The position numbers and the translations under genes were made by a program. This document shows positions 18,589 through 20,430 of a stretch of 64,000 bases of DNA, piece after piece. Source of the stretch: Eledone cirrhosa (lineage: Eukaryota); NCBI GenBank assembly GCA_964016885.1, contig OZ024740.1, forward strand, positions 436,170,001 to 436,234,000. Direction: 5' to 3'. How positions within the stretch are numbered: position 1 is the first letter of the stretch; each line of letters opens with the position of its first letter. The notes beneath the pieces were generated by a model. That model was not told the origin of the DNA and did not search any database. It saw only the letters and a list, made by a program, of their open reading frames with translations.

Positions 18589-18695
18589 TATGAATGTATG
18601 TATAGTATATTTGGCAATATACCGTATGTTTAATTAAAAACATTTAGAAGAGCATACGCTATCAGTTTTAAAGTAGTGACTATGCCACTTACTTC

Positions 18696-18786
18696 TTTTC
18701 GGCGAAAGAAGGGAGATAAGCTGACAGTATGTTTCACGCTGGCTGGCGTTCATCAGAGCCACGTACTTCCCTGCTTTCGCCGAAAA
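18696..18786 (-). ncRNA. Canonical type I hammerhead ribozyme (GUC site) on a long stem I
   Basis: Minus strand: ggct-CUGAUGA-acgc(cagcca)gcgt-GAAA-ca(tac)tg-UC-agct; distal stem ttttcggcgaaag-c-aggga / tccct-t-ctttcgccgaaaa; predicted cleavage between 18723 and 18722. Confidence 0.9.
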
Positions 18787-20430
18787 TTATAGAAGCTGGA
18801 TTCTTATAGAATTCCAGTAATAATCAGGAGCGGATTATACAGAGCGATTGCTGGTCCAGTATATATATATTTGTTAAAACTTTGAAAATGCACGAACGTC
18901 ACACAAATATGTCTCAGTTTACGAAAATATTGATTAGTTACAGATGTTTTCGTTAACTCTTTGTCGTTTAGTTAGATTTACCATCTCCATGCTGGTGTAT
19001 TTAATATTGTCTTCTTCATTCTCATTTTTAAATAGATTTATCAACATATTTTAATGATAATTACATTGCCATAATAGATAGGAACTGTCAATGGTTTCGG
19101 CGTGAGTGTAACACTCAACTAATTCAACTGAAACTCTCTGTCTTCTAGTATAACATTGACAGATAGTGTTTCCTACTGATACATCTAGGGTATTATAATA
19201 TAGAATAGACGAATACTTATGGATTAATTTAACCGACCAGTCAATACCCCCGAATGTCTAAACCTCATCTGTTTGTATATGATGTTATTCCCATGTGTCA
19301 TATTTACTAGCTTAGGTATTGTCACTCTTTGTTAGCAGTATTATCATACAATATGTTTTTATCACTCCCATGACACCTCTAGCATTCATCTTCTAAAATA
19401 GGGAAGACATAAAGCTCCCTTGGTATTGATGTTTTTCTTGCTGATCTACAATATTTTTAGCAATCTACTAACAGATACAAATATTTATTTTGGCCAAATT
19501 CCAGGCTTATATCCTGAGAGAATATACTAATTAGGTATAGCTGTTTTTAACATTGGAATTGTTGCTAACCCAAAGTTATATCTCATTGACATGTTTTTAG
19601 TTATATAGGCATCCATATTCTTAAATTCGTTATGATAAACATTAGATGGTTTTCCCATTGACACACTCAAGTATATATTTACAAACTTACAACGTCAAGT
19701 TTTTCTTTTCATTAATCCTATGCAAAAAACTATAAATTATTCTAAATATGAATTCAATATATTTGAATGAAATCTGAAGAACTACAGAGACCAAGGAGTA
19801 ACCTGGTTTCGATTTATGGTCGAAGCCATTTCACTTTACATATGCCACTTTATCTTGGGTGTGATTGTGACATTATTTTTCCATTAACCAAGATAATACG
19901 TCACAGTCACGTGTGTTTGGAAATTTACATTTTTCTCCGTTTTCACACAATACAGTTCCTATGTTATAATAAGTTGGCTCTCCATAGGCACTGAGCTGAC
20001 CAGCCGCAAATGTGAGCCCCCCGAGTTGGAATGGTTCTTCCAGCGCATCTCCCTTATCATCCTCCGGGGAAACGCCTTCTCCATCCTGTCCGCCGGGGCT
20101 GGGGGGAGGGAGGCACCACGTAGAACCCCCTTTGCTCACCATACGGATTAATAGGCAAGGTTAAAAACTATTGTAAATAATTATTGTGGCTTGCTTACAA
20201 AAAAAAAAATCTAAAGTCCTTCATTCTAACATTTGTCACTGTCAATAGTTATTCTTCCAAAGTCATCCTGGAAGCCATGTGGTCATACAAGATGGACAAG
20301 TAATTATATCATATAAACAAATTATTAAAATACCACTTTTATCTATAACATCGACGTGTCAGTAATCAATATAAACTATAGGGTTTATTTTATGCAAATT
20401 ATTTTATCAAACTGCAAATTTCCTAGTTTC

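What the first reader, a model, noticed from the sequence alone, without database searches (positions are those of the whole stretch)
18610..18870. Stand-alone canonical GUC hammerhead on a long hairpin in a ~250-bp ORF-less insert (retrozyme candidate)
Seen: intact CUGAUGA/GAAA/GUC core, 4-bp stem II with 6-nt loop, 3-bp stem III, and stem I extended past an internal loop by ~18 bp (ttttcggcgaaag-c-aggga / tccct-t-ctttcgccgaaaa). The insert lies between TA-rich tracts with no ORF and no ACTC..GAGTGC tail. Known: stem I internal loop to loop II contacts mark fast natural type I HHRs. Inference: the most likely active ribozyme here, possibly a monomer of a metazoan non-LTR retrozyme that forms circular RNA.
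Basis: partly seen in the sequence, partly recalled or inferred. Interest (0 to 1): 0.75.

Follow-up and report, generated by a model that had tools for sequence, protein, structure and literature searches.

The report
Truncated retrozyme copy with intact hammerhead
The self-cutting RNA motif is really in the sequence, but it sits in an incomplete, slightly decayed copy of a 316-base non-coding repeat found at hundreds of places in this animal genome and likely pasted into TA repeats by a Penelope-type jumping-gene enzyme, so it is an ordinary new member of a known kind (retrozymes).

Summary
The type I hammerhead (minus strand, C17 at 18723) is real: core intact, hairpin z = -4.0, covariation across six sister subfamilies including a C3-G8/U3-A8 swap. 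It is not stand-alone. It lies in a 269-bp copy (18591-18859) of a 316-bp ORF-less repeat (family A: 350 exact core hits, about 4% from its majority sequence). Copies run head-to-tail into themselves; none joined a PLE ORF. They show the Penelope (PLE) footprint: (TA)n target, 5' truncation, inverted arms, two fixed 3' ends about 35 bp apart. This copy lacks about 47 bp, has one ribozyme and could not release a circle. Four changes from the family majority, one breaking a helix I pair beside loop 1, undercut 'most likely active'. A young sister family forms arrays whose units, inverted arm included, are identical (57 of 59), as a single circular template predicts. No RNA data; no autonomous parent found. 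The scan has already reported sister families in this genome on other DNA. Verdict: new member of a known kind, interest 0.3.

The parts
18591..18859 (-). 5'-truncated copy of a 316-bp retrozyme unit (family A); 3' end at the family's fixed tail-less site; lacks ~47 bp including the ~35-bp tail
18750..18756 (-). hammerhead core C3-A9 (CUGAUGA), C3-G8 type
18736..18749 (-). stem II (4 bp) and 6-nt loop 2; A-to-G at 18743 versus family majority (65 A, 8 G of 73)
18723..18735 (-). GAAA, stem III (3 bp, 3-nt loop; G-to-U at 18729 versus majority), GUC triplet; predicted cut 18723/18722
18717..18762 (-). helix I (18762-18757 with 18722-18717): 4 bp + U.U + G.A here; majority has G-C at the last pair
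18696..18786 (-). extended helix I: loop 1 (UAC bulge), 5-bp helix, 13-bp outer helix; outer helix covaries across subfamilies (7 of 13 pairs changed on both sides)
18508..18590 (.). (TA)n tract at the 3' end of the element (target)
18860..18870 (.). short (TA)5 at the truncated 5' junction; flank beyond it is single-copy

Best explanation
This is a 5'-truncated, single-ribozyme copy of a 316-bp non-coding repeat with a type I hammerhead, likely copied from RNA and pasted into a (TA)n tract by the enzyme of a Penelope-like retrotransposon (PLE). Shown: anatomy, head-to-tail unit, copy number, ends, covariation. Inferred: tandem source loci are transcribed, the hammerheads cut the RNA into unit lengths, a host ligase closes them into circles, and a PLE GIY-YIG/RT protein nicks (TA)n and starts reverse transcription at one of two fixed internal sites ~35 nt apart; here it started at the tail-less site and stopped after 269 nt. 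Family A spread in an old burst and this copy has decayed since; if transcribed it would at most be cut once and would not give a circle.
For: Repeat family: 57 matches from 40 of 2519 candidates scored, full-length ones 92-97% identical; 350 exact core 27-mers, control 0; 936 exact tail 27-mers. Unit: period 316 bp in 10 of 20 measurable loci, 293-319 overall; longest reading frame round the unit 39/52 codons. PLE footprint: of 57 distinct loci 38 end at site a (unit 255-273), 18 at site b (293-309), 1 elsewhere (my tally); 21 of 57 have an inverted arm; in all 10 with a simple inverted arm ending at a fixed site the two arms use opposite sites; 2 have extra inner arms and 9 end elsewhere. 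This matches the tail on one end described for PLEs (Craig et al., 10.1101/2021.04.23.441226, passages) and two RT start sites in vitro (PMC11167929, main text). An intact Hydra-type PLE in this genome follows the same two-end rule with an ~80-bp tail. Selection on the ribozyme in the lineage: 18 of 30 pairs changed on both sides in 10 sequences from six subfamilies, 88.6% of cells paired against 39-53% when slid; position 3-8 is C-G or U-A in 97 of the first 100 of 2015 hits in subfamilies C/D (hand count; probably one or a few events). Single-template signature: in six arrays of sister family B, 57 of 59 units equal their own array's majority, inverted arm included, while arrays differ by 0-5; two family-A tandems have identical ribozyme halves (0 of 140) although diverged from the family.
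Against: No RNA evidence for transcription, cleavage or circles. No autonomous PLE with a homologous end was found, so the helper is unidentified. Family A itself gives little single-template signal: within-locus 6.3% vs between-locus 7.8%, 11 of 13 tandems differ by 9-30 of ~140, and arms are short (median 365 bp). Array homogeneity could come from local amplification, gene conversion, assembly polishing or a linear multimer from a homogeneous source; three family-B units from different places are identical. In vitro a Poseidon PLE used uncleaved RNA and did not need its hammerhead, so cleavage and circularisation may not be part of mobilisation.
Confidence: 0.85

Rival explanations
1. It is the solo pseudo-LTR (3' end) of an autonomous PLE whose ORF was lost by 5' truncation.
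For: Ends, tail, inversions and (TA)n target are those of PLEs; PLE pLTRs carry type I hammerheads (PMC4209133, passages).
Against: Copies long enough to tell run into the previous unit, not into an ORF. Among 178 fetched loci with an arm (overlapping loci included), no PLE coding match lay within 190 bp upstream of an arm on the same strand; only the window's four PLE ORFs were queries, so a Neptune or Naiad parent could be missed. No similarity to the Hydra-type PLE ends.
Confidence: 0.08
2. This particular copy is an efficient ribozyme kept or co-opted at this place (e.g. cutting a host transcript).
For: All core nucleotides intact; the loop III change removes a competing pairing, so the cleavage-competent 2D fold costs 5.5 kcal/mol against 8.5 for a majority-like copy; UAC bulge and 6-nt loop 2 align with Rfam HH9.
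Against: 3.2% from the majority, like other copies (mean 4.1%); two of its changes disturb helix I at loop 1; 46 of 57 sampled loci also keep an intact core (sample partly chosen by core); no host gene was identified here; only 1 of 9 predicted Xenopus retrozyme dimers cleaved in vitro (10.64898/2026.07.22.740005).
Confidence: 0.05
3. The repeat is a DNA-level satellite or MITE-like element and the hammerhead is a passenger.
For: Long homogeneous arrays exist in the sister family.
Against: Variable 5' truncation with fixed 3' ends, dispersed single copies, and covariation in the catalytic core point to an RNA intermediate under selection.
Confidence: 0.02

Closest known systems
Metazoan non-LTR retrozymes (Cervera and de la Pena 2020, PMC7229834, parts 2-4 of 6 read; Li, Clavereau and Pollet 2026, bioRxiv 10.64898/2026.07.22.740005, parts 1-3 of 5 read)
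   Same: Canonical type I hammerhead in a 150-450-bp ORF-less unit, GC under 50% (39%), head-to-tail organisation, strongly self-paired unit, co-occurrence with PLEs; many solo monomers.
   Different: Family A is almost all sub-dimer (14 tandem two-core pairs against 350-465 core hits); stem III is 3 bp with a triloop, not the 1-2 bp palindromic stem of most animal motifs; helix I is prolonged by an 18-bp conserved arm; clear two-site, inverted-arm PLE footprint, which those papers (parts read) do not report; expression untested.
Pseudo-LTRs of EN+ Penelope-like elements (PMC4209133 passages; Craig et al. 2021 passages; PMC11167929 main text)
   Same: 5' truncation, partial tandems, adjacent inverted copy, 30-40-bp tail on one end only, (TA)n target, type I hammerhead, U3-A8 core variant in the lineage.
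   Different: No ORF and no homologous ORF-bearing element found; hammerhead is canonical, not the minimal PLE type.
Rfam Hammerhead_HH9 (RF02275)
   Same: Core, 4-bp stem II, 6-nt loop 2 and the UAC bulge in helix I align over the whole model.
   Different: 22.7 bits against a gathering score of 52; HH9 (recalled: isolated conserved amniote intronic motif) is not a repeat.

Membership tests
Type I hammerhead ribozyme | Conserved core CUGANGA / GAAA / NUH with helices I-III, open end in helix I | tested here: met
Type I hammerhead ribozyme | Loop 1 / loop 2 tertiary motif (6-bp helix I, bulge, 6-nt loop 2) | tested here: inconclusive
   Present in the family majority (5 of 6 helix I pairs plus U.U); this copy has 4 of 6 and a changed loop 2 base
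Type I hammerhead ribozyme | Self-cleavage after NUH | not testable with these tools
   needs in vitro transcription
Non-LTR retrozyme | Unit of 150-450 bp with one type I hammerhead, repeated head-to-tail | tested here: met
   Family: 316-bp period, partial tandems, 13 loci with two or three cores. This copy is a sub-monomer.
Non-LTR retrozyme | No protein-coding capacity; GC under 50% | tested here: met
   longest stop-to-stop frame 39/52 codons; GC 0.39
Non-LTR retrozyme | No LTR, PBS or PPT | not tested
   Ends are circularly permuted, not LTR-like; PBS and PPT were not searched
Non-LTR retrozyme | Stable self-paired circular unit | tested here: met
   circular MFE -81.4 kcal/mol, 62% paired, z -5.7 against 60 shuffles, for the unit of L011
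Non-LTR retrozyme | Expressed as linear and circular monomer RNA | not testable with these tools
   no RNA holder listed
Non-LTR retrozyme | 'Active' locus = at least two consecutive complete hammerheads (Li et al. 2026) | tested here: not met
   This copy has one; 14 tandem pairs genome-wide. Lowers 'active locus', not family membership.
Non-LTR retrozyme | Target-site duplication | tested here: inconclusive
   both ends lie in (TA)n; flank is single-copy so no empty site was available
PLE-mobilised sequence | Fixed 3' ends with optional 30-40-bp tail on one end, 5' truncation, inverted arm, (TA)n target | tested here: met
Autonomous PLE (solo pLTR) | Longer copies join an RT/GIY-YIG ORF | tested here: not met
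   queries limited to the window's four PLE ORFs

The most novel reading that the evidence does not exclude
This ~310-325-bp retrozyme superfamily (about 25,000 tail motifs) is copied by rolling-circle reverse transcription of a single circular RNA, primed on both target strands at two fixed sites, and the helper is a Hydra-clade PLE: one two-armed insertion (L105) has a retrozyme arm with end a on one side and, on the other, a retrozyme arm that switches without a TA spacer into the tail-bearing 3' end of a Hydra-type element a few bases before its hammerhead cut site. That would name the enzyme of an animal retrozyme and give genomic proof of the circle-templated model.
Probability: 0.2. Interest if true: 0.62.

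Novelty: new member of a known kind. Interest (0 to 1): 0.3.

Why it matters
The copy itself is one of about a thousand and matters little. The family is useful as a test bed: how animal retrozymes are mobilised is still a hypothesis (PLE helper, circular template), and this genome keeps old (A, C, D) and very young (B) subfamilies of one lineage with a PLE footprint, natural variants of stem III (2, 3 and 4 bp) and of the C3-G8 core pair. That makes the helper, the template form and the role of cleavage directly testable.

Tried and rejected
Rfam on the whole window gave only microsatellite-driven miRNA noise and missed the hammerhead; it appeared only on short stretches. RNA runs: no RNA holder listed; the four runs laid are contigs with flank depth 4-6, behave as DNA and say nothing on expression. 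DNA search with the family-B unit returned nothing because its words are too common. Search for an autonomous parent: tblastn of four window PLE ORFs against fetched loci, 25 Hydra-type loci, a distant nhmmer hit that proved to be another 324-bp ORF-less hammerhead repeat with no BLAST similarity to family A, and tail variants (182 hits, 30 read: 29 belong to the same superfamily or are fragments of it, 1 chance match): none found. Two same-strand adjacencies to Hydra-type ORFs (L059, L184) have TA between the parts and are best read as shared targets. No Pol III B box in the A or B unit. Empty-site test impossible, flank single-copy. Idea that a dimer-only stem III (family B) gives long arrays and a monomer-competent one (A, C, D) short arms: not separable from age, since A, C and D are all old (within-locus 4-7%), and an earlier unchecked note reports a 49-unit array of the U3-A8 family. 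Nearest-neighbour probabilities of the active fold are tiny for all subfamilies and ignore tertiary contacts, so they were not used to call activity. Pfam found only a weak RVT_1 hit in one of four PLE ORFs, so clade names rest on motifs read against Craig et al. Literature: three searches; none of the listings showed a paper on this family; supplements were not read and may list cephalopod or other mollusc retrozymes. Whether the locus lies in an intron was not determined.

Full report
OBSERVATION. On the minus strand the sequence shows a complete type I hammerhead: CUGAUGA 18756-18750, 4-bp stem II with a 6-nt loop, GAAA, 3-bp stem III with a 3-nt loop, GUC with C17 at 18723. Helix I continues past an internal loop into 5 + 13 bp; the 101-nt stretch folds at -37.7 kcal/mol, z -4.0, 1 of 200 shuffles as good. 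A strict descriptor fires once in the window and in 0 of 100 shuffled windows. Rfam HH9 aligns over its whole length at 22.7 bits, E 0.0014, under its gathering score.

WHAT IT BELONGS TO. The window lies in a 3.0-Gb animal genome rich in (TA)n. The stretch is a repeat copy: 57 matches from 40 of 2519 candidates scored, 350 exact matches to a core 27-mer and 465 to a looser core pattern, controls 0, 936 to the tail 27-mer. At ~4% divergence that suggests roughly a thousand ribozyme-bearing copies (my estimate). Longer copies run head-to-tail into themselves with a modal period of 316 bp (10 of 20 loci). The unit has no reading frame over 52 codons, is 39% GC and folds well as a circle (z -5.7). 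The window copy covers 18591-18859, 269 bp: it ends at the family's fixed tail-less 3' site next to a long (TA)n and is cut at its 5' end, ~47 bp short of a unit. DNA contigs of public runs confirm the 5' junction; the flank is single-copy.

INSERTION FOOTPRINT. In 57 distinct family-A loci (60 fetched, 3 dropped as the same places) the main arm ends at site a in 38, at site b (~35 bp further) in 18, elsewhere in 1; 5' ends are scattered with no pile-up at the ribozyme cut site (L001-L030 chosen by similarity, the rest by an exact core, so arms lacking the ribozyme are under-sampled). 21 of 57 carry an inverted arm; in the 10 with a simple inverted arm ending at a fixed site the arms always use opposite sites, 2 have extra inner arms, 9 end elsewhere. 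The same holds in subfamilies B, C and D. This is the arrangement described for PLEs, with a 30-40-bp tail on one end only (Craig et al. preprint, passages), which in a Poseidon element reflects two internal RT start sites (PMC11167929, main text). A Hydra-type PLE with 719-codon frames in this genome obeys the same rule with an ~80-bp tail. I found no ORF-bearing element homologous to the unit.

THE SUPERFAMILY. A shared 15-mer in the tail has 24,745 exact hits. Reading them gave sister subfamilies at about 60-85% identity. Ten hammerheads from six subfamilies keep the fold: 88.6% of cells paired, 18 of 30 pairs changed on both sides, 7 of 13 in the outer helix, slid controls 39-53% (related sequences, so cells are not independent events, and one row lacked its 5' half). 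Subfamily C carries U3-A8 in place of C3-G8: 64 U-A, 33 C-G, 2 C-A, 1 U-G in the first 100 of 2015 hits (hand count); this variant is published for PLE hammerheads (PMC4209133). Young family B (310 bp) forms back-to-back arrays of up to 16 tail motifs; 57 of 59 units in six arrays equal their array's majority, inverted arm included, while arrays differ by 0-5 bases. This is what reverse transcription round one circular monomer predicts (model in PMC7229834), but homogenisation, polishing or a linear multimer are not excluded.

STATE OF FAMILY A AND OF THIS COPY. Family A is old: mean 4.1% from its majority, 6.3% within and 7.8% between loci. Only 14 tandem two-core pairs at 13 loci were found genome-wide; 11 have diverged halves, 2 identical halves, suggesting rare recent re-insertions. 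The window copy is 3.2% from the majority with four changes in the ribozyme region: 18717 (sixth helix I pair G-C becomes G.A; this pair is G-C or U-A in other subfamilies), 18768 (breaks a pair beyond loop 1), 18743 (loop 2) and 18729 (loop III, which removes a competing pairing). Activity is therefore open, perhaps even odds for some cleavage and lower for fast cleavage at low Mg2+; in Xenopus only 1 of 9 predicted dimers cleaved. With one ribozyme and an incomplete unit the locus cannot release a unit circle.

MECHANISM. Shown: structure, repeat unit, ends, covariation, array homogeneity in family B. Inferred: transcription of tandem sources, hammerhead processing, ligation by a host ligase (RtcB in vitro), PLE nicking of (TA)n and two-site internal priming, premature stop giving this 269-bp arm. 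Against a needed role for cleavage: a Poseidon PLE inserted uncleaved RNA equally well in vitro. One lead on the helper: L105, a two-armed subfamily-C insertion whose right arm passes without TA into the tail-bearing end of a Hydra-type element; one case, and a later deletion could explain it.

NOVELTY. Non-LTR retrozymes and their proposed PLE origin are published. My three literature searches listed no paper on this family (supplements unread). I recorded the two-end rule and family B before consulting those notes. Verdict: new member of a known kind; interest 0.3.

Noticed in passing
L105 770-1432 (G000:C1:16992200-16994400): Two-armed subfamily-C retrozyme insertion whose right arm joins, without a TA spacer, the tail-bearing 3' end of a Hydra-type PLE about 5 nt before that element's hammerhead cut site; possible template switch naming the helper.
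   Followed up: partly
L091-L096 (e.g. G000:C1:1240013-1244439, 15433925-15438559): Young 310-bp family B arrays, back-to-back, units identical within an insertion; stem III is a 2-bp palindrome (dimer-type hammerhead). L091 has an extra base in helix I in all 13 units compared.
   Followed up: yes
L011/L187 and L188: The only family-A tandems with identical halves, though diverged from the family: likely recent re-insertions of aged templates.
   Followed up: partly
window 8600-14430: Hydra-type PLE (ORF 11002-13165, one frameshift near 11550) with an inverted partial copy; hammerhead with a very long stem II at ~14345-14400 and ~8775-8715; ends follow the two-site rule with an ~80-bp tail; about 89,500 first-look candidates genome-wide.
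   Followed up: partly
window 60047-63505 (-): Poseidon-like PLE ORF (739 codons, weak RVT_1) followed by a pLTR with a minimal hammerhead-like motif near 61005-60965 and the start of a second copy.
   Followed up: no
window 30560-30925: Inverted pair of PLE-end-like arms, each with a CUGAGGA...GAAA motif and a long stem II (30654 - and 30823 +).
   Followed up: no
window 18040-18508: Another fold-back element next to the finding (inverted ends 18050-18110 / 18370-18430, then a tail running to the TA tract); no canonical hammerhead found by my scan.
   Followed up: no
L017 1801-2410, L023 790-1250, L156-L175: A further ORF-less 324-bp hammerhead repeat (2810 first-look candidates) with head-to-tail and inverted arms, no BLAST similarity to family A.
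   Followed up: partly
L109 790-1075: Divergent relative (subfamily F) with U3-A8 core, different upstream sequence and an early 3' end; unit length not determined.
   Followed up: no
window 46890-51255 (-) and 35073-38490 (+): Two Tx1/L1-type LINE copies (ORF1, endonuclease, RT) and an RT fragment at 28538-29770, read from the ORF list only.
   Followed up: no
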